Source: Candidatus Bipolaricaulota bacterium (GTDB lineage Bacteria; Bipolaricaulota; Bipolaricaulia; UBA7950; UBA9294). Taken from it: a stretch of DNA of 64,000 bases. The first letter of the stretch is position 1. Each line of letters begins with the position of its first letter. The notes beneath the pieces were generated by a model. That model saw only the letters and a program-made list of their open reading frames with translations, was not told where the DNA came from and searched no databases. The stretch lies in contig JAPLGD010000068.1 in assembly GCA_026390345.1 (NCBI GenBank), forward strand, positions 24,078 to 88,077, read 5' to 3'. Positions 9,691 to 58,805 of the stretch are shown piece by piece. Position numbers and translations under genes: made by a program.

Positions 9691-10932
9691 ATGAAACCCG
9701 CAGTGGAGATCCGCGAGTACCGACCGAGCGAGGACGCCGACGCCTGCCGCCGCACGTGGAACGAGAGCGGCTGGGTGGACGGCGCGAAGAACGAGGAAGC
9801 CTTCCGCCTGTTCGCCGAGAGCGCCCGGTCCGTCGTCGGCGTGGTGGACGGATCGGCCGAGTGCCTGGTCAACGTCCATTCGGGGTCGCTCCGCTACCTC
9901 GACCTCGACATCCCGCTCGCCTGCGTGACCGGAGTCACGACGAGCCGCATCGTGCGTCGGCAGGGTCTGGCCGGCCGCAGCACCGCGTGGGCGCTCGCCG
10001 CGGAGGCGATCGCGGGGACTCCCGTCGCGGCGCTCGGCGTCTTCGAACAGGGGTTCTACAACCGGCTCGGATTCGGCAACGGTCCCTACGAGACCTGGTG
10101 CACGTTCGACCCGGCGCAGCTCGTGGTGCACTCGACGCCCAGGATCCCGGCGCGCCTCACATCAGCAGATTGGGAGGCCGTCCATGCGAGCCGCCTCCGG
10201 CGCCGCCGCTGGCACGGCGCCGCCACCATCCTGTCCGGCGAGCTGACTCGCGCCGACATGCTGTGGGGCGAGAAGTCGTTCGGTCTCGGATACCGCGATG
10301 AGACCGGCGCCCTCACGCACCACATCTGGTGCTCGACTGAGAAACCACGCCGTGGTCCGTACTCCGTCGACTGGATGGCCTTCCGCACGCGCGAGGAATT
10401 CCACGAGCTCCTCGCCCTGATCCACAGCCTCGCCGACCAGATCCACTCGATCGAGATCCATGAACCTCCGGGCCTGCAACTGCAGGACCTGCTCCGGCAG
10501 CCGTTCAAGGGCCGCCGGATGACCGAGGCGTCGCCCCACGTCCAGCGCATGTCATCAAGCGCCTATTGGCAACTGCGAATCCTCGACCTCCATCGCACGC
10601 TCGCCGTGACGCACCTGCCTGCCGGACCGGTGCGCTTCAACCTCGAGCTCTCCGATCCGATCGAGAGTGCGCTTCCTGCGCGCTCGCCGTGGCGAGGCGT
10701 TGCAGGCTCGTACGTCGTCACGTTGGGTCCCGAGAGCGGCGCCGAGCGCGGCGCGAATCCAGCGCTCGCGACACTGCGAGCGTCTGTCAACGCGTTCTCA
10801 CGCACATGGCTCGGCGTTCGGTCACCGACCAGCCTCTCCTGGACGGACGACCTCGAAGCGCCGCCCGCTCTCCTTGGGAGCCTCGATCGAGCCCTCTGCC
10901 TGCCGGCGCCGGCGTGCGACTGGGATTACTGA
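9691..10932 (+). CDS. GNAT-family N-acetyltransferase with Eis-like three-domain architecture
   Basis: 413 aa with an N-terminal GNAT fold (RQGLAGRSTAWAL) and a C-terminal SCP2-like tail. ATG is preceded by GGTGGTGAAGG. Confidence 0.7.
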   Translation: MKPAVEIREYRPSEDADACRRTWNESGWVDGAKNEEAFRLFAESARSVVGVVDGSAECLVNVHSGSLRYLDLDIPLACVTGVTTSRIVRRQGLAGRSTAWALAAEAIAGTPVAALGVFEQGFYNRLGFGNGPYETWCTFDPAQLVVHSTPRIPARLTSADWEAVHASRLRRRRWHGAATILSGELTRADMLWGEKSFGLGYRDETGALTHHIWCSTEKPRRGPYSVDWMAFRTREEFHELLALIHSLADQIHSIEIHEPPGLQLQDLLRQPFKGRRMTEASPHVQRMSSSAYWQLRILDLHRTLAVTHLPAGPVRFNLELSDPIESALPARSPWRGVAGSYVVTLGPESGAERGANPALATLRASVNAFSRTWLGVRSPTSLSWTDDLEAPPALLGSLDRALCLPAPACDWDY

Positions 10933-10977
10933 CCGGGCACGACGGTGAACCGCTGGCTCTGACGCTGCGACTCACCT

Positions 10978-11118
10978 ATGATGATGGGCCGAGGTTTCCA
11001 TCTTGTGAATGAGAAGAGAGATTTCGCCGATGGAGGTCTCCATCTCGTGGACGAGAAGAGAAGGTTCGTCGATGGCGGGCTCCACCTCTTCGACGCAGAA
11101 GGGAGGGTTCACTCATGA
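10978..11118 (+). CDS. Candidate 46-aa tandem-repeat peptide MMMGRGFHLVNEKRDFADGGLHLVDEKRRFVDGGLHLFDAEGRVHS (not in the ORF track)
   Basis: The open frame begins after a TGA at 10960-62. Three consecutive ATGs, no stop for 46 codons, and a TGA that overlaps the ATG of the next gene (ATGA at 11115-11118). The frame encodes 14-aa repeats matching the 42-bp DNA repeats. There is no clear SD. Confidence 0.3.
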   Translation: MMMGRGFHLVNEKRDFADGGLHLVDEKRRFVDGGLHLFDAEGRVHS

Positions 11119-11121
11119 GGG
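10996..11121. repeat. Three tandem copies of an imperfect 42-bp repeat (units 10996-11037, 11038-11079, 11080-11121)
   Basis: Units A and B are about 33/42 identical. All share the core TCCAyCTCkTGrAyGAGAAGAGA..TTCG.CGATGG.GG. Confidence 0.7.
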
Positions 11122-11345
11122 TATTGCGAGGAGTTATCTCCGGAGGCGGCATTGCGGCGTTCTTCTTCTTCAGCTGGGTCATCGAGGCGCTCTGGAACAG
11201 CATCTTGGTCGACCAGCTCGGCCTCGTCGCGGTGAAGGTGAACTACTGGCAAGCGGCCGCGTTGTGGTTCCTGTCGATCATCTTCTTCGCCGGAGCCGGA
11301 ATCGTCGCGTCGCCGCGCGTACGAAGGTGGTGGAGGAGCGACTAG
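11115..11345 (+). CDS. Small two-TM membrane protein (76 aa) with a basic C-terminal tail
   Basis: ATG at 11115 is preceded by GGGAGG at 8 nt spacing. Two hydrophobic helices (GIAAFFFFSWVIEALW and AALWFLSIIFFAGAGIVA) precede a PRVRRWWRSD tail. Confidence 0.55.
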   Translation: MRVLRGVISGGGIAAFFFFSWVIEALWNSILVDQLGLVAVKVNYWQAAALWFLSIIFFAGAGIVASPRVRRWWRSD

Positions 11346-11478
11346 CGTCCCGCTCGGATCCAAACGGCAGCTCGAAGGGCACGGCCCGGCCGTCGACCCG
11401 GCCGCGTCATGCGCCAAGAGGAGCCTGACTCTGAACTCCAACTCCGCACACAGCGCCTGGGCCGAGCTTCGTCCCCTG

Positions 11479-12024
11479 ATGGACGAACGCTTCGTCATTC
11501 TCGACACCGAGACCACGGGCCTCCTTGCGCCGGAACTCGTCTCGGTCGCCGTCGTCGACTGCCGCGGGCGAACGGTGCTGTCCGAGACGGTTCGCCCGGC
11601 GAAGCCGATCGAACCGGAGGCGAGCCGCATTTCCGGAATCACGATGGAATCGGTTGCGGACCGACCGGAGTTCCCGGCCGTCGCCGCCGACGTCTCTCAA
11701 GCCCTTGACGGCCGGCTCGTGGTCATCTACAACGCCGCCTACGACACGCAGGTGCTCCGCAATACGTGTGCTCGTTACGGGATCGAGGTTCCCGCCTTTC
11801 GCCCCTGGTGTGCAATGGAGTGGTTTGCGCGCCTGTACGGCGAATGGGACGAAGGTCGCGGCGCCTACATTTGGCAGTCGCTGTCGAAGGCAGCTACGTA
11901 CTTCGGCGTCGTCCAAGAATCGGCGCACAGTGCCGTCGCGGACTGCCTCACGACGTGGAAGATCCTCGAGGAGGCCTTCCGGCGCTCCGGCCTGCGGGTT
12001 CCCGGCATGGAGCCGCTTCTCTAG
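11479..12024 (+). CDS. DEDDh 3'-5' exonuclease (DnaQ / DNA polymerase III epsilon-like)
   Basis: FVILDTETTGL, YNAAYD and H..AVADC motifs. Confidence 0.85.
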   Translation: MDERFVILDTETTGLLAPELVSVAVVDCRGRTVLSETVRPAKPIEPEASRISGITMESVADRPEFPAVAADVSQALDGRLVVIYNAAYDTQVLRNTCARYGIEVPAFRPWCAMEWFARLYGEWDEGRGAYIWQSLSKAATYFGVVQESAHSAVADCLTTWKILEEAFRRSGLRVPGMEPLL

Positions 12025-12099: not shown

Positions 12100-12570
12100 A
12101 TGGAGAAGAGGCTCTACAGGAGTCGAGCCGACTCGATGCTCGGAGGGGTCTGCGGCGGGCTCGCCGCGTACTTCAGCGTGGACGTCACCCTCATCCGCCT
12201 CTTGTTCGTCCTCTTCGCCGTTGCCACGGGAGTCGGGATCCTCGCGTACTTCATCCTTTGGCTCGTCGTCCCCGTCGAAGGGCAGTCGTCCACGGACCTC
12301 GGAGAGCGGATCCACGAAGGGGCCGAGGAGATCGCCAACCGCGCCCGGACGATGAGCGAGGACCTGCGGTCGCCCGACGGGTCGCGCCACTCGGGGGCCA
12401 CCGTCGTGATTGCCCTCGTGCTGATTCTGATCGGCGTCGTCTTCCTGTTGCGCAACGTGGGCGTATCGTGGGCCCGATGGATCAGACTGGGAATCCTGTG
12501 GCCGATCCTTCCGATCGGCCTCGGCGTAGCCCTCTTGTGGCGGCGTCTGCAAGGAGGAGGATCGAAGTGA
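12100..12570 (+). CDS. PspC-domain membrane protein (phage-shock/envelope stress)
   Basis: [32 protein letters not shown] is a PspC domain, followed by TM helices. ATG is preceded by AAGGAGGAG. Confidence 0.85.
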
Positions 12571-12758
12571 GCCCTCGACGCCTTAGCGAGTTTGTCCTTC
12601 CGCTTCTCGTCCTTGGAGCGGGGATTGTGCTTCTCTTGAACACGCTCGACGTCGTCTCGTGGGCCGTGTGGGAGGACATCGCCCGGTTCTGGCCCGTCCT
12701 CCTGATCGCCATCGGATTGGGCGCGCTCCTCCGCGGAGTGAGAGGAGGCTCGCCGTGA
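12567..12758 (+). CDS. Small two-TM membrane protein (63 aa, DUF5668/LiaF-TM-like)
   Basis: GTG at 12567 forms a GTGA overlap with the pspC stop and is preceded by AAGGAGGAGG. The sequence is hydrophobic. Confidence 0.5.
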
Positions 12759-13675
12759 CAGGTCGAGCGCTTCGAGGATCGCTCCTCATCCCTCTCGTTC
12801 TCATCGCGTTCGGGGTCGTCGTCCTCCTCGTCAACTTCGGGGTGCTCGACGCGCGAGAGACCTGGCACGTTGTCCTGCGAGGTTGGCCGATTGTGATCAT
12901 CCTGCTCGGGCTGGATCTCGTCCTGTCCAGGGCATCGGCGGGGCACGCGTTCGGCGTGCTCGTTCTCGTGTGTGTCATCGCGGCCGCCGCGTTCGCCGCC
13001 GTGAACTTCGCCGCTCCCGCACACTGGATCACGCAGACCGTTCAGGTCCACGAGCCGCTCCCGACGGCATCCGCCGTGGAGATCACGGCGGCGTGCCCCG
13101 AGTGCTCGATGACCCTGAGCGGAGGGGCTTCCCGCGACCGCCTTGTCGAGGGATCCGCGGAGGTCCGTTGGCTGGACCGCTTCGCGCGGACGTCGGAAGC
13201 GGACGGAACGACGTTCCGCCTCGAGCTTCAGGGCAAATCCCGCCTTCCGTTCACGGTTCGCTCCTTGCGCGACCGACCCGTCTGGAACCTTCGCGTCGCG
13301 GACGAGGTGGCGATGACGGTCTCGGTCTCCGGAGCCCGGTGCGACGTCGACCTCACGAAGTCAAACGTCGCCACGCTCTACGTCCGGGCCGACGGGGAGG
13401 CCTCGATCCGCTTGTCCAAGGTTCGAGCGAGCACCGTCTACGTCACCGCGGAATCCGTGCGCATCGAGGTTCCCGGGGACGTCGGGCTTGTCGTCGAGGG
13501 AACCGACGCCGTCGGTCAGCTTCTCGTCCCGGACGACTACACACGCGGCGCGACCTCCGTGGCCTCGCCGCAGGCAGACGCGGCGCGCGTTCGCACGCGC
13601 ATCGTCATCCTCCCGGGAGCCGAGCGCGTGGAGATCGTGCCGGCCGGCACGGACGCGACAACGCCGAAGACGTAG
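12755..13675 (+). CDS. LiaF-like / DUF4097 cell-envelope stress protein (N-terminal TM segment plus beta-rich C-terminal domain)
   Basis: GTG at 12755 forms a GTGA overlap with the preceding gene and is preceded by GAGAGGAGG. Two TM helices are followed by a repetitive beta-strand domain. The tracked ORF start at 12659 would overlap the upstream genes. Confidence 0.7.
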   Translation: MTGRALRGSLLIPLVLIAFGVVVLLVNFGVLDARETWHVVLRGWPIVIILLGLDLVLSRASAGHAFGVLVLVCVIAAAAFAAVNFAAPAHWITQTVQVHEPLPTASAVEITAACPECSMTLSGGASRDRLVEGSAEVRWLDRFARTSEADGTTFRLELQGKSRLPFTVRSLRDRPVWNLRVADEVAMTVSVSGARCDVDLTKSNVATLYVRADGEASIRLSKVRASTVYVTAESVRIEVPGDVGLVVEGTDAVGQLLVPDDYTRGATSVASPQADAARVRTRIVILPGAERVEIVPAGTDATTPKT

Positions 13676-45980: not shown

Positions 45981-46053
45981 CAGGCCCGGAGGGGCTCGAA
46001 CCCCCGACCTTCCGATTTGGAGTCGGATGCTCTGCCAATTGAGCTACGGGCCT
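45981..46053 (-). tRNA. tRNA-Trp (anticodon CCA)
   Basis: Cloverleaf AGGCCCGTAGCTCAATTGGCAGAGCATCCGACTCCAAATCGGAAGGTCGGGGGTTCGAGCCCCTCCGGGCCTG. Located in the conserved rpmG-tRNATrp-secE position. Confidence 0.9.
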
Positions 46054-46125
46054 GTATCACGCCTTCGGCCCGACACGGGCCTGTATCACCTCGGCCCGCC
46101 GCGGGCCTGTGCTCGTCGGCCCGAC
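46054..46125. repeat. Degenerate duplications of the tRNA-Trp 5' leader plus first 9 nt (GTGATACAGGCCCGT x2, plus a third partial copy)
   Basis: The direct repeats gggcctgtatcac at 46047-46059 and 46075-46087, and gggcctgtgctc near 46102, lie between tRNA-Trp and rpmG. Confidence 0.5.
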
Positions 46126-50575: not shown

Positions 50576-50657
50576 GTCGATGTCCCCCTTGGGTGAACGA
50601 TAAGTGGTCTTGCGGAGTATATCGACCCCTCGCGGAGGGAGCAAGAATCGCCGCTAC

Positions 50658-50850
50658 GGTTGCGGTTCCGCCCTCCGTACACGGTTGCGGCTCCGCCCTC
50701 CGTACACGGTTGCGGCTCCGCCCTCCGTGCACGCTTGCGGCCCCGCCCTCCGTGCACGCTTGCCGCCCCGCCCTCTCATCAAGCTTGCGGCTCGGCCACG
50801 GCACGCCGTCCGCTTGCCGCTCCGTCCGCGTTTGCGGCCCCGCCCGGCGC
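50658..50850. repeat. Array of 7-8 tandem copies of a GC-rich 25-bp repeat (consensus GCTTGCGGCYCCGCCCTCCGTRCAC) in a divergent intergenic region
   Basis: Units at 50658-82, 50683-707, 50708-32, 50733-57 and 50758-82, plus longer and shorter degenerate units out to about 50850. No spacers of unique sequence, so this is not a CRISPR array. Confidence 0.85.
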
Positions 50851-58490: not shown

Positions 58491-58584
58491 ACCCTCACTC
58501 CTTCCTTCTAGCCTGCCACGCTACGACAGCGCCAGGGCGCCGACAAGAAAAGGATCGCCGCCCGCCGTGTCCCCGCCGTCTCGC

Positions 58585-58805
58585 CTCACGGCACGCCGTC
58601 CACTTGCCGCTCCGTTCGCGCTTGCCGCCCCGCCCACGGCACGCCGTCCACTTGCCGCTCCGTTCGCGTTTGCCGCCCGGCACCCCGTCCGTTTGCCGCT
58701 CGGCCCTCCGTGCACGCTTGCCGCTCGGCCCACCGTCCACGCTTGCCGCCCCGCCCGCCGTCCACGTTTGCGGTAGCGCCCTCCGTCCGCGTTTGCGCCC
58801 TTGCC
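58585..58805. repeat. Second array of about 9 tandem copies of the same 25-bp GC-rich repeat family, including a ~49-bp higher-order duplication
   Basis: cacggcacgccgtccacttgccgctccgttcgcg is repeated at 58587 and 58635. Later units such as gcttgccgctcggccctccgtgcac are 22/25 identical to units of the 50658 array, in the same orientation. Confidence 0.85.

What the first reader, a model, noticed from the sequence alone, without database searches (positions are those of the whole stretch)
10978..11345. Tandem-repeat mini-ORF translationally coupled to a two-helix membrane mini-protein
Three tandem 42-bp DNA repeats (10996-11121) lie entirely inside an untracked 46-codon open frame. They encode three 14-aa peptide repeats (GFHLVNEKRDFADG, GLHLVDEKRRFVDG, GLHLFDAEGRVHS; His- and acid-rich). 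The frame opens with three consecutive ATGs. Its TGA overlaps the ATG of a 76-aa two-TM protein (ATGA at 11115-11118) that has a good GGGAGG SD. The pair sits between an Eis-like acetyltransferase and a DnaQ-like exonuclease and matches no family I recognise. The repeat region could be a translated repeat peptide, such as a small secreted or metal-binding peptide with an immunity or holin-like partner. Alternatively it could be a structured or repeat-binding leader that controls the membrane protein.
Basis: seen in the sequence. Interest (0 to 1): 0.7.

Follow-up and report, generated by a model that had tools for sequence, protein, structure and literature searches.

The report
Triplicated 5' leader, not a peptide gene
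The "repeat mini-gene" is most likely a lineage-specific tandem triplication of the short untranslated leader (ribosome-binding site and start codon included) of a conserved small membrane-protein gene; its 46-codon open frame looks like a by-product, so the finding is ordinary.

Summary
The sequence features are real. There is a 42-bp tandem array (two good copies plus a diverged third), a 46-codon open frame, an ATGA overlap, and a downstream 76-aa two-helix membrane protein with a strong SD. The membrane protein is a genuine gene, conserved in about 90 protein clusters that are almost all Candidatus Bipolaricaulota, and it matches no known family.

The repeat is not conserved. All 18 contigs of the closest syntenic relatives and about 85 more distant loci have a single 29-54-nt leader; the window has 138 nt, which is two extra units. 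Each unit aligns to the relatives' whole leader, including the SD and start codon. In relatives, two GAGGGT motifs lie exactly 42 nt apart, which explains the period by slippage or unequal crossover.

The mini-ORF's ATGs lie inside a TAnnAT -10-like box found in 57 of 79 loci. It has no SD, its GC3 is 0.62 against 0.81-0.86 for neighbouring genes, and it has no homologues. In relatives the equivalent frame is truncated at codon 5 or frameshifted. The ATGA overlap is built into the family's Met-Arg/Lys start.

Verdict: a non-coding leader expansion. Translation or a regulatory effect cannot be excluded without expression data.

The parts
10946..10971 (+). Conserved upstream motif TGAAC-N17-CGAC, an ECF-sigma-like -35/-10 arrangement, in front of the small membrane-protein gene.
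   Evidence: The same motif with the same spacing is found in 20 loci of the window's clade. It appears again in the closest relatives. Its assignment as a promoter is inference only.
10977..10982 (+). TATGAT, a -10-like box. It overlaps the first of the 'three ATGs' of the 46-codon ORF.
   Evidence: A TAnnAT box lies 29-54 nt upstream of the start codon in 57 of 79 homologous loci, against 0-3 of 79 in shifted control windows. It is invariant as TATGAT or TATCAT in the 18 closest contigs.
10978..11118 (+).
   Evidence: It has no SD, GC3 of 0.62, no homologues and no conservation in orthologues. Three of six frames are open across this region.
10991..11032 (+). Repeat unit 1: a degenerate copy of the leader. 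It carries a relic SD (GAGAAGAGAGA, 11011-11021) and a relic start codon (ATG, 11030-11032).
   Evidence: It aligns to unit 3 and to the single leader of L003. It is absent from all relatives.
11033..11074 (+). Repeat unit 2: a degenerate copy of the leader. It carries a relic SD (GAGAAGAGAAGG, 11053-11064) and a relic start codon (ATG, 11072-11074), which is out of frame with the real start.
   Evidence: Same alignments as unit 1. It is 76% identical to unit 1.
11075..11117 (+). Repeat unit 3: the working leader copy. It holds the real SD (GAAGGGAGGG, 11098-11107) and the real ATG (11115-11117) of the membrane-protein gene.
   Evidence: It is collinear with the leaders of relatives, with a conserved block GAAAGGrAGGGTT..ATGAGGG. 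It has a 1-nt insertion relative to units 1 and 2.
11115..11345 (+). Gene for a 76-aa two-helix membrane protein. It belongs to an uncharacterised family conserved in Bipolaricaulota and equals MCX6094469.1.
   Evidence: GC3 is 0.86. There are 90 homologous clusters and 15 invariant residues. AF2 predicts a helical hairpin. There is no Pfam, NCBIfam, PHROG or PADLOC match.

Best explanation
The array is a lineage-specific tandem triplication of the 5' leader of a conserved small membrane-protein gene.

In the ancestral state, still seen in every relative, the gene has a leader of about 54 nt: a -10-like box, a short hairpin (CGAGGG-N6-CCCTCG), the SD and then ATGAGGGT. The hairpin's 5' arm (GAGGGT) and the first codons of the gene (atGAGGGT) form a 6-nt direct repeat exactly 42 nt apart. 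Slipped-strand mispairing or unequal crossover between these two motifs duplicated the 42-nt segment twice. That segment runs from the hairpin through the SD to the start codon.

The two upstream copies have since decayed. Their SDs went from GGGAGGG to AGAGAGA and AGAGAAGG, and a 1-nt indel put their relic ATGs out of frame with the real start. The promoter-distal copy still serves the gene.

The 46-codon frame is an accident of three things: a stop-poor, purine-rich repeat; a period divisible by three; and the TGA that is built into ATG-AGG. It most probably encodes nothing.

Shown here: the insertion relative to orthologues, the homology of each unit to the leader, the 42-nt microhomology spacing, and the lack of conservation of the ORF. 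Inferred: the slippage mechanism, that TATGAT is the -10 box, and that the ORF is untranslated.
For: 1. Insertion relative to orthologues.
- The fully syntenic orthologue L003 lacks about 85 nt at exactly this point, while both flanks align.
- Eighteen contigs of the closest relatives all have a 53-54-nt leader and an Eis-to-tm76 gap of 97-106 nt, against 138 and 182 nt in the window. Their tm76 is about 87-92% identical in protein to the window's. Gene identity at the nucleotide level, measured for five representative contigs, is 75-91%.
- Across 79 loci with at least 400 nt upstream, the box-to-ATG distance is 29-54 nt in 57. The window's 138 nt equals L003's 53 nt plus 85, about two 42-nt units.

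2. Each unit is a copy of the leader.
- Units 1-3 and the L003 leader co-align. The best-conserved block is the SD, the spacer and ATG.

3. Microhomology.
- GAGGGT lies at leader positions 14 and 56, 42 nt apart, in L091, L092, L095-L098 and L101-L103.

4. No coding signal.
- GC3 is 0.62 against 0.81-0.86 in neighbouring genes.
- There is no SD.
- The ATGs lie inside the conserved box.
- phmmer against 1.84 billion proteins gave only unrelated repeat proteins.
- The equivalent frame in relatives reads MMRV* in six contigs. These encode the same tm76 protein (P0099) as sister contigs L093, L094, L099 and L100, in which the frame stays open. It is frameshifted in L003 and L090.
- The DNA homology between units 2 and 3 crosses a 1-nt indel.

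5. Not a dispersed element.
- There is no other copy in the window, in the 106 fetched loci or in viral contigs.
Against: - Between units 1 and 2, substitutions are somewhat enriched at third codon positions of the ORF frame (3, 2 and 5 at positions 1-3). pN/pS is 0.37, the lowest of the six frames. The counts are tiny (4.2 synonymous against 5.8 non-synonymous changes) and uncorrected for six frames, but they are what weak purifying selection would look like.
- A 17-18-codon frame ending at the same ATGA is open in ten of the 18 close contigs.
- If transcription starts from the ECF-like motif rather than from TATGAT, the first AUG could sit at or near the 5' end. It could then be used as a leaderless start.
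- The units differ by 24%, so the array is old and has not been lost. Neutrality allows this but does not predict it.
- No expression data of any kind were available.
Confidence: 0.8

Rival explanations
1. The expanded leader is a functional, selected regulatory element. In this reading the extra units down-tune or condition translation of the membrane protein. They could do so by forming a long imperfect hairpin, by titrating ribosomes on relic SD/AUG decoys whose out-of-frame ORF (11009-11428) runs across the real start, or by supplying extra anti-SD-like CUCCAUCUC tracts.
For: - The ancestral leader contains a hairpin with compensatory changes: 4 of 9 pairs. Its arms are SD-like and anti-SD-like, so the leader may already be a translational control element.
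- The MFE fold of the window's leader pairs unit 1 with unit 2 and pairs part of the real SD with the CCUCUUC of unit 3.
- The array has persisted long enough to diverge by 24%.
Against: - The array is unique to one lineage among more than 100 loci.
- The leader folds no better than shuffles, with z of +0.12 and -0.17.
- There is no Rfam match.
- The relic SDs have decayed rather than been maintained.
- No test of function was possible.
Confidence: 0.12
2. The 46-codon ORF is a young translated upstream ORF, born by the duplication. Its translation, possibly leaderless, delivers ribosomes to the membrane-protein start through the ATGA overlap. The peptide itself would be unimportant or newly functional.
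For: - The ATGA (-4) overlap is a known coupling geometry (review PMC12548453).
- pN/pS is 0.37 in this frame.
- A shorter version of the frame is open in ten of 18 close contigs.
- The ECF-like motif would place a transcription start near 10978 (inference).
Against: - There is no SD.
- The ATGs lie within the conserved -10-like box.
- GC3 is 0.62.
- The frame is truncated at codon 5 or frameshifted in eight of 18 close contigs, with the membrane protein unchanged.
- The gene has its own strong SD in every locus, so coupling is not needed.
- The overlap is generic to the Met-Arg/Lys start.
- The peptide has no homologues.
Confidence: 0.06
3. The repeat is a MIRU-like mobile or dispersed intergenic element. 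In this reading it inserted at the start codon and carries an internal ORF that couples to the host gene.
For: The geometry is the same as described for mycobacterial MIRUs: tandem units of 40-100 bp at a start codon, with an internal ORF ending at -4.
Against: - Each unit is homologous to the locus's own ancestral leader, SD and ATG.
- The period equals the ancestral GAGGGT spacing.
- There is no second copy in the 64-kb window, in the 106 fetched loci or in viral contigs.
Confidence: 0.02

Closest known systems
Intergenic VNTR or minisatellite formed by slipped-strand mispairing or unequal crossover between short direct repeats
   Same: Head-to-tail units of tens of bp in an intergenic region. 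The array is flanked by, and seeded from, a short direct repeat: GAGGGT, 42 nt apart in relatives. The copy number differs between close lineages (one copy against three).
   Different: The duplicated segment is the gene's own translation-initiation region (SD plus ATG). The units have diverged by 24% or more, so the array is old and not a hypervariable contingency locus. No copy-number polymorphism was seen, because only one genome carries the array.
Mycobacterial interspersed repetitive units (MIRUs)
   Same: Tandem units of 40-100 bp sit at a start codon. An ORF runs through the units and ends with a -4 overlap on the downstream gene (PMC12548453).
   Different: MIRUs are dispersed at many loci and are thought to be mobile. 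This unit is single-locus and derived from the local leader.
Upstream ORF or leader-peptide control with termination-reinitiation coupling
   Same: A short ORF lies in the leader and its stop overlaps the main start (ATGA).
   Different: There is no SD, and the start codons lie in the -10-like box. The ORF is not conserved in orthologues. There are no regulatory codon runs and no alternative terminator or antiterminator; no terminator was found.
SD-sequestering leader hairpins (RNA-thermometer-like elements such as ROSE and fourU)
   Same: The ancestral leader has a conserved hairpin whose 3' arm (CCCUC) is complementary to SD-type sequence.
   Different: In relatives the hairpin pairs with an upstream SD-like arm, not with the real SD. 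There is no Rfam match, no evidence of temperature response, and no excess stability.

Membership tests
Protein-coding small gene (translated repeat peptide) | Ribosome-binding site or another credible initiation signal | tested here: not met
   The 20 nt upstream are TCTGACGCTGCGACTCACCT, with no SD. The ATGs overlap the conserved TATGAT box.
Protein-coding small gene (translated repeat peptide) | Codon composition like the genome's genes | tested here: not met
   GC3 is 0.62 against 0.81-0.86 for four neighbouring genes.
Protein-coding small gene (translated repeat peptide) | Frame conserved in orthologous loci | tested here: not met
   Relatives have one unit. The frame stops at codon 5 in six contigs and is frameshifted in two.
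Protein-coding small gene (translated repeat peptide) | Homologues elsewhere | tested here: not met
   phmmer against 1.84 billion representatives gave seven hits, all unrelated low-complexity repeat proteins. There were no Pfam, NCBIfam, PHROG or PADLOC hits.
Protein-coding small gene (translated repeat peptide) | Purifying selection between repeat copies | tested here: inconclusive
   pN/pS is 0.37 in the ORF frame, but from about 10 substitutions and as the best of six frames.
Slippage-derived tandem duplication (VNTR-type) | Units homologous to the single-copy sequence at the same site in relatives | tested here: met
   Alignments A3 and A4.
Slippage-derived tandem duplication (VNTR-type) | Short direct repeats at the unit boundaries in the unexpanded state, spaced by the period | tested here: met
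   GAGGGT lies at leader positions 14 and 56, 42 nt apart, in nine relatives.
Slippage-derived tandem duplication (VNTR-type) | Copy-number polymorphism within a population | not testable with these tools
   Only one genome carries the array, and reads were not available.
MIRU-like dispersed repeat | Multiple copies at unrelated loci of the genome | tested here: not met
   There is no second copy in the 64-kb window, the 106 fetched loci or viral contigs. The rest of the MAG was not searchable.
Known structured cis-regulatory RNA (Rfam) | Match to a covariance model, or excess thermodynamic stability | tested here: not met
   No relevant Rfam hit at E up to 10. z-scores are +0.12 and -0.17.
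Holin, immunity or defence partner (for the 76-aa protein) | Match to phage or defence protein families, or such a genomic context | tested here: not met
   The window's 76-aa protein has no PHROG or PADLOC hit. The context is housekeeping and syntenic across species: SDR, GNAT, exonuclease, PspC.
ECF-sigma-dependent promoter (for the TGAAC-N17-CGAC motif) | Conserved AAC-containing -35 and CGT/CGA-type -10 at 16-18 nt spacing; a cognate sigma factor; a mapped transcription start | tested here: inconclusive
   The motif and its spacing are conserved in 20 loci. No ECF sigma was detected in the window with an E. coli RpoE probe recalled from memory. No transcription-start data exist.

The most novel reading that the evidence does not exclude
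The triplication has created a newborn upstream ORF that is really translated, as a leaderless or near-leaderless message from the ECF-like promoter. It would deliver ribosomes to the membrane-protein start through the ATGA overlap. That would be a natural, locally generated analogue of the MIRU arrangement and a caught-in-the-act example of de novo ORF birth from a duplicated translation-initiation region.
Probability: 0.07. Interest if true: 0.5.

Novelty: new member of a known kind. Interest (0 to 1): 0.2.

Why it matters
The main value is negative. A suggestive small 'gene' with peptide repeats and an ATGA overlap should not be annotated or pursued as a peptide.

It is also a clean, fully reconstructible example of how a 6-nt microhomology between a leader hairpin and the first codons of a gene can triplicate a ribosome-binding site and start codon. 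The spare copies then decay, and an ORF-like artefact results.

Two by-products may interest people working on Bipolaricaulota. One is an uncharacterised, very highly conserved 76-aa two-helix membrane protein family. The other is a conserved promoter-like architecture (TGAAC-N17-CGAC plus TAnAAT) and leader hairpin in front of that family.

Tried and rejected
- Rfam scan of 10700-11600 at E up to 10: only two chance-level hits outside the array.
- RNA folding of both strands and of the presumed transcript: not more stable than shuffles on the + strand. The - strand had z = -1.63, which is not significant.
- Antisense 46-codon ORF 10972-11112 (-): GC3 is 0.68, and its only hit is a chance-level Pfam match below the gathering cut-off. 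Rejected.
- Simple sigma-70 and terminator scan: no + strand promoter by the strict two-hexamer rule and no terminator. There was one minus-strand match, which I regard as chance.
- Search for an ECF sigma gene in the window with E. coli RpoE (sequence recalled from memory): nothing below E = 1.8. This is uninformative.
- Fold search of the 76-aa model against the PDB: no hit. A two-helix hairpin is too simple for this test.
- Pfam, NCBIfam, PHROG and PADLOC scans of the window's two small proteins: nothing significant.
- Exact-sequence look-up of the window's own contig failed, although the protein is in the clustered collection as MCX6094469.1.
- A CsrA-type GGA-in-loop reading of the repeats was considered by eye and dropped. 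The predicted loops do not present GGA.

Full report
1. The observation

- Tandem Repeats Finder reports one array at 10991-11088, with period 42, 2.3 copies, 80% matches and score 119. It is the third-highest-scoring array in the 64-kb window.
- The unit does not recur in the window at up to 3 mismatches, and the expected number of chance matches is 0. A short-word BLAST also finds nothing.
- The 46-codon ORF 10978-11118 (+) exists and ends in the ATGA of the 76-codon ORF 11115-11345.
- Only units 1 and 2 are close copies, at 76% identity.
- Openness is not informative here. Across 10987-11114, three of the six frames have no stop and the other three have one stop each.
- The window is 66.7% GC. 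The ORF's GC3 is 0.62, against 0.81-0.86 for the four neighbouring genes, including 0.86 for the 76-aa gene.

2. The downstream gene is real and conserved

- The 76-aa protein has 90 homologous clusters (E down to 1e-35), nearly all from Candidatus Bipolaricaulota/Acetothermia MAGs.
- An alignment of 35 members shows 15 invariant residues: the GGG..AFFFFS..LWNSI..YWQ..WF pattern.
- AlphaFold2 on that alignment gives a helical hairpin, H2-34 and H44-65, with mean pLDDT 74.
- No Pfam, NCBIfam, PHROG, PADLOC or PDB-fold relative was found for it.
- The window's copy is MCX6094469.1 (locus tag NTY63_06590) on a 95.7-kb MAG contig.

3. Comparison with related loci

I fetched 58 loci from species-representative genomes, 31 from metagenomes and 17 contigs of the closest relatives.
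- The gene order HEAT-repeat protein, SDR, GNAT/Eis-like, tm76, exonuclease, PspC is shared with L003 and the close relatives.
- In L003 the flanks align base for base, but about 85 nt corresponding to window ~10986-11075 are absent.
- The seven aligned close relatives show the same clean gap.
- All 18 close contigs have a leader of 53-54 nt from the TATGAT/TATCAT box to the ATG, against 138 nt in the window.
- Their Eis-stop to tm76-start gap is 97-106 nt, against 182 nt in the window.
- Over 79 loci with at least 400 nt of upstream sequence, 57 have a TAnnAT box 29-54 nt before the start codon. Equal-sized control windows shifted upstream have 0-3.
- The window's excess of 85 nt over L003 is two 42-nt units.

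4. What the units are

- Units 1, 2 and 3 co-align with the single leader of L003. The best-conserved block is GArAAGrGAgGGTTCryc-ATG, which is the Shine-Dalgarno sequence, the spacer and the start codon.
- Unit 3 (11075-11117) is therefore the working leader.
- Units 1 (10991-11032) and 2 (11033-11074) are decayed copies. Their relic SDs are GAGAAGAGAGA (11011-11021) and GAGAAGAGAAGG (11053-11064). Their relic ATGs are at 11030 and 11072.
- Unit 3 carries a 1-nt insertion relative to units 1 and 2. The relic ATGs are therefore 85 and 43 nt from the real ATG and out of frame with it.
- For the same reason, the DNA homology of the second half of unit 3 lies in a different codon phase from that of units 1 and 2. 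The repeat is conserved as DNA, not as peptide.

5. Origin of the 42-nt period

In nine close relatives the single leader contains GAGGGT twice, at leader positions 14 and 56, exactly 42 nt apart.
- The first copy is the 5' arm of a small hairpin (CGAGGG-N6-CCCTCG).
- The second is the G of the ATG plus codons 2-3 (atGAGGGT).
- Slipped-strand mispairing or unequal crossover between these motifs predicts a 42-nt unit running from the hairpin to the start codon, which is what is seen. This step is inference from the anatomy.
- That the period is a multiple of three is then an inherited coincidence.

The window differs from its nearest relatives by 9-19% at the nucleotide level in genes, and third-codon-position identity is 63-82%. 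A 24% divergence between units is therefore compatible with a duplication after the lineage split.

6. The mini-ORF

- Its three ATGs (10978-10986) overlap the conserved box TATGAT (10977-10982). If that box is the -10 element, transcription starts near 10989-10992 and the ATGs are not in the mRNA (inference).
- There is no SD upstream, whereas tm76 has a strong SD in the loci examined.
- An exhaustive phmmer search of 1.84 billion representatives gave seven hits at E of 0.001 or better. All are long low-complexity repeat proteins with other periods.
- In relatives the equivalent frame is a 17-18-codon ORF ending at the same ATGA in ten contigs.
- It reads MMRV-stop in six contigs that encode exactly the same tm76 protein as some of the open ones. 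It is frameshifted in L003 and L090.
- The ATGA overlap itself is generic. The family begins Met-Arg/Lys (ATGA[GA]N), and 35 of 83 loci have some unrelated ORF of at least 15 codons ending there.
- The one point in favour of coding is pN/pS of 0.37 between units 1 and 2 in this frame. It rests on about ten substitutions and is the best of six frames.

7. RNA-level readings

- Rfam finds nothing relevant.
- The leader folds no better than shuffled sequence, with z of +0.12 and -0.17.
- The ancestral one-unit leader does show a hairpin with compensatory changes in 4 of 9 pairs across nine sequences. The leader may therefore have a modest structural role, which the triplication would have multiplied or disturbed. 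I could not test any functional consequence.

8. Comparison with known systems

- The closest known kind is an intergenic VNTR made by slippage between short direct repeats.
- The geometry also recalls mycobacterial MIRUs, which sit at start codons and carry an ORF coupled at -4 nt (review PMC12548453). This unit, however, is single-locus and derived from the local leader, so it is not a member of that kind.
- It is not a leader-peptide attenuator. It has no SD, is not conserved and has no terminator.

9. Verdict

- The repeat is real, but it is a lineage-specific expansion of a non-coding leader (confidence about 0.8).
- A selected regulatory role for the expanded leader has a probability of about 0.12.
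- Real translation of the ORF has a probability of about 0.06.
- Interest is low, at 0.2. The case is a tidy illustration of how duplication of a translation-initiation region can mimic a repeat-peptide gene.

Noticed in passing
window 10946-10971; also L001-L012, L015, L020, L059-L062, L066, L069, L070 just upstream of the tm76 gene: A motif TGAAC-N17-CGAC(nnAC) is conserved in 20 loci of the window's clade, 5-10 nt upstream of the TAnAAT box. From memory, its spacing and letters resemble ECF-sigma promoters such as B. subtilis SigX (TGtAAC-N17-CGAC). PspC/LiaF-like genes lie just downstream, so the small membrane protein could belong to an envelope-stress regulon.
   Followed up: partly
L091, L093, L094, L100, L101, L104, L105, L003, L090: leaders about 45 nt upstream of tm76 (alignment A5): The single-copy leader of close relatives has a 6-bp hairpin (CGAGGG-N6-CCCTCG) extended by 3 further pairs. 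Compensatory changes occur in 4 of the 9 pairs. Its arms are SD-like and anti-SD-like, so it might modulate translation.
   Followed up: partly
window 11115-11345 and proteins P0001-P0090: The 76-aa two-helix protein defines an uncharacterised family that is almost confined to Bipolaricaulota, with 15 invariant residues. A longer form (112-130 aa, P0080-P0081, P0083-P0087, P0089-P0090) adds a charged, probably helical C-terminal tail. Some loci (L031, L023/L076, L024) carry a second copy close upstream.
   Followed up: partly
window 11009-11428 (+): A 139-codon ORF in the frame of the relic ATGs (11030, 11072) runs right across the tm76 gene, out of frame with it. If the relic starts are still used at all, they would produce this read-through product and occlude the real start.
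   Followed up: no
window 50656-50797, 58575-58678, 58658-58796, 46046-46125: Four other tandem arrays: 25 bp x 5.7, 48 bp x 2.1, 25 bp x 5.6 and 26 bp x 3. Two of them score higher than the array studied here. Their context was not examined.
   Followed up: no
window 11479-12024 compared with L093, L094, L099, L100 (1759-2415) and L091 (2035-2415): The exonuclease downstream is called as 181, 218 or 126 aa in closely related contigs. Its true start, and therefore the tm76-exonuclease spacing, is uncertain.
   Followed up: no
window 12100-13675: A PspC-domain protein with a LiaI/LiaF-like TM region is followed by a 338-aa ORF. The corresponding genes in relatives carry LiaF-TM hits. This envelope-stress-type module is syntenic in the close relatives.
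   Followed up: partly
window 11009-10981 (-): The only sigma-70-type two-hexamer match in 10700-11600 lies on the minus strand inside unit 1 (TTCACA-17-CATCAT). It is probably chance.
   Followed up: no
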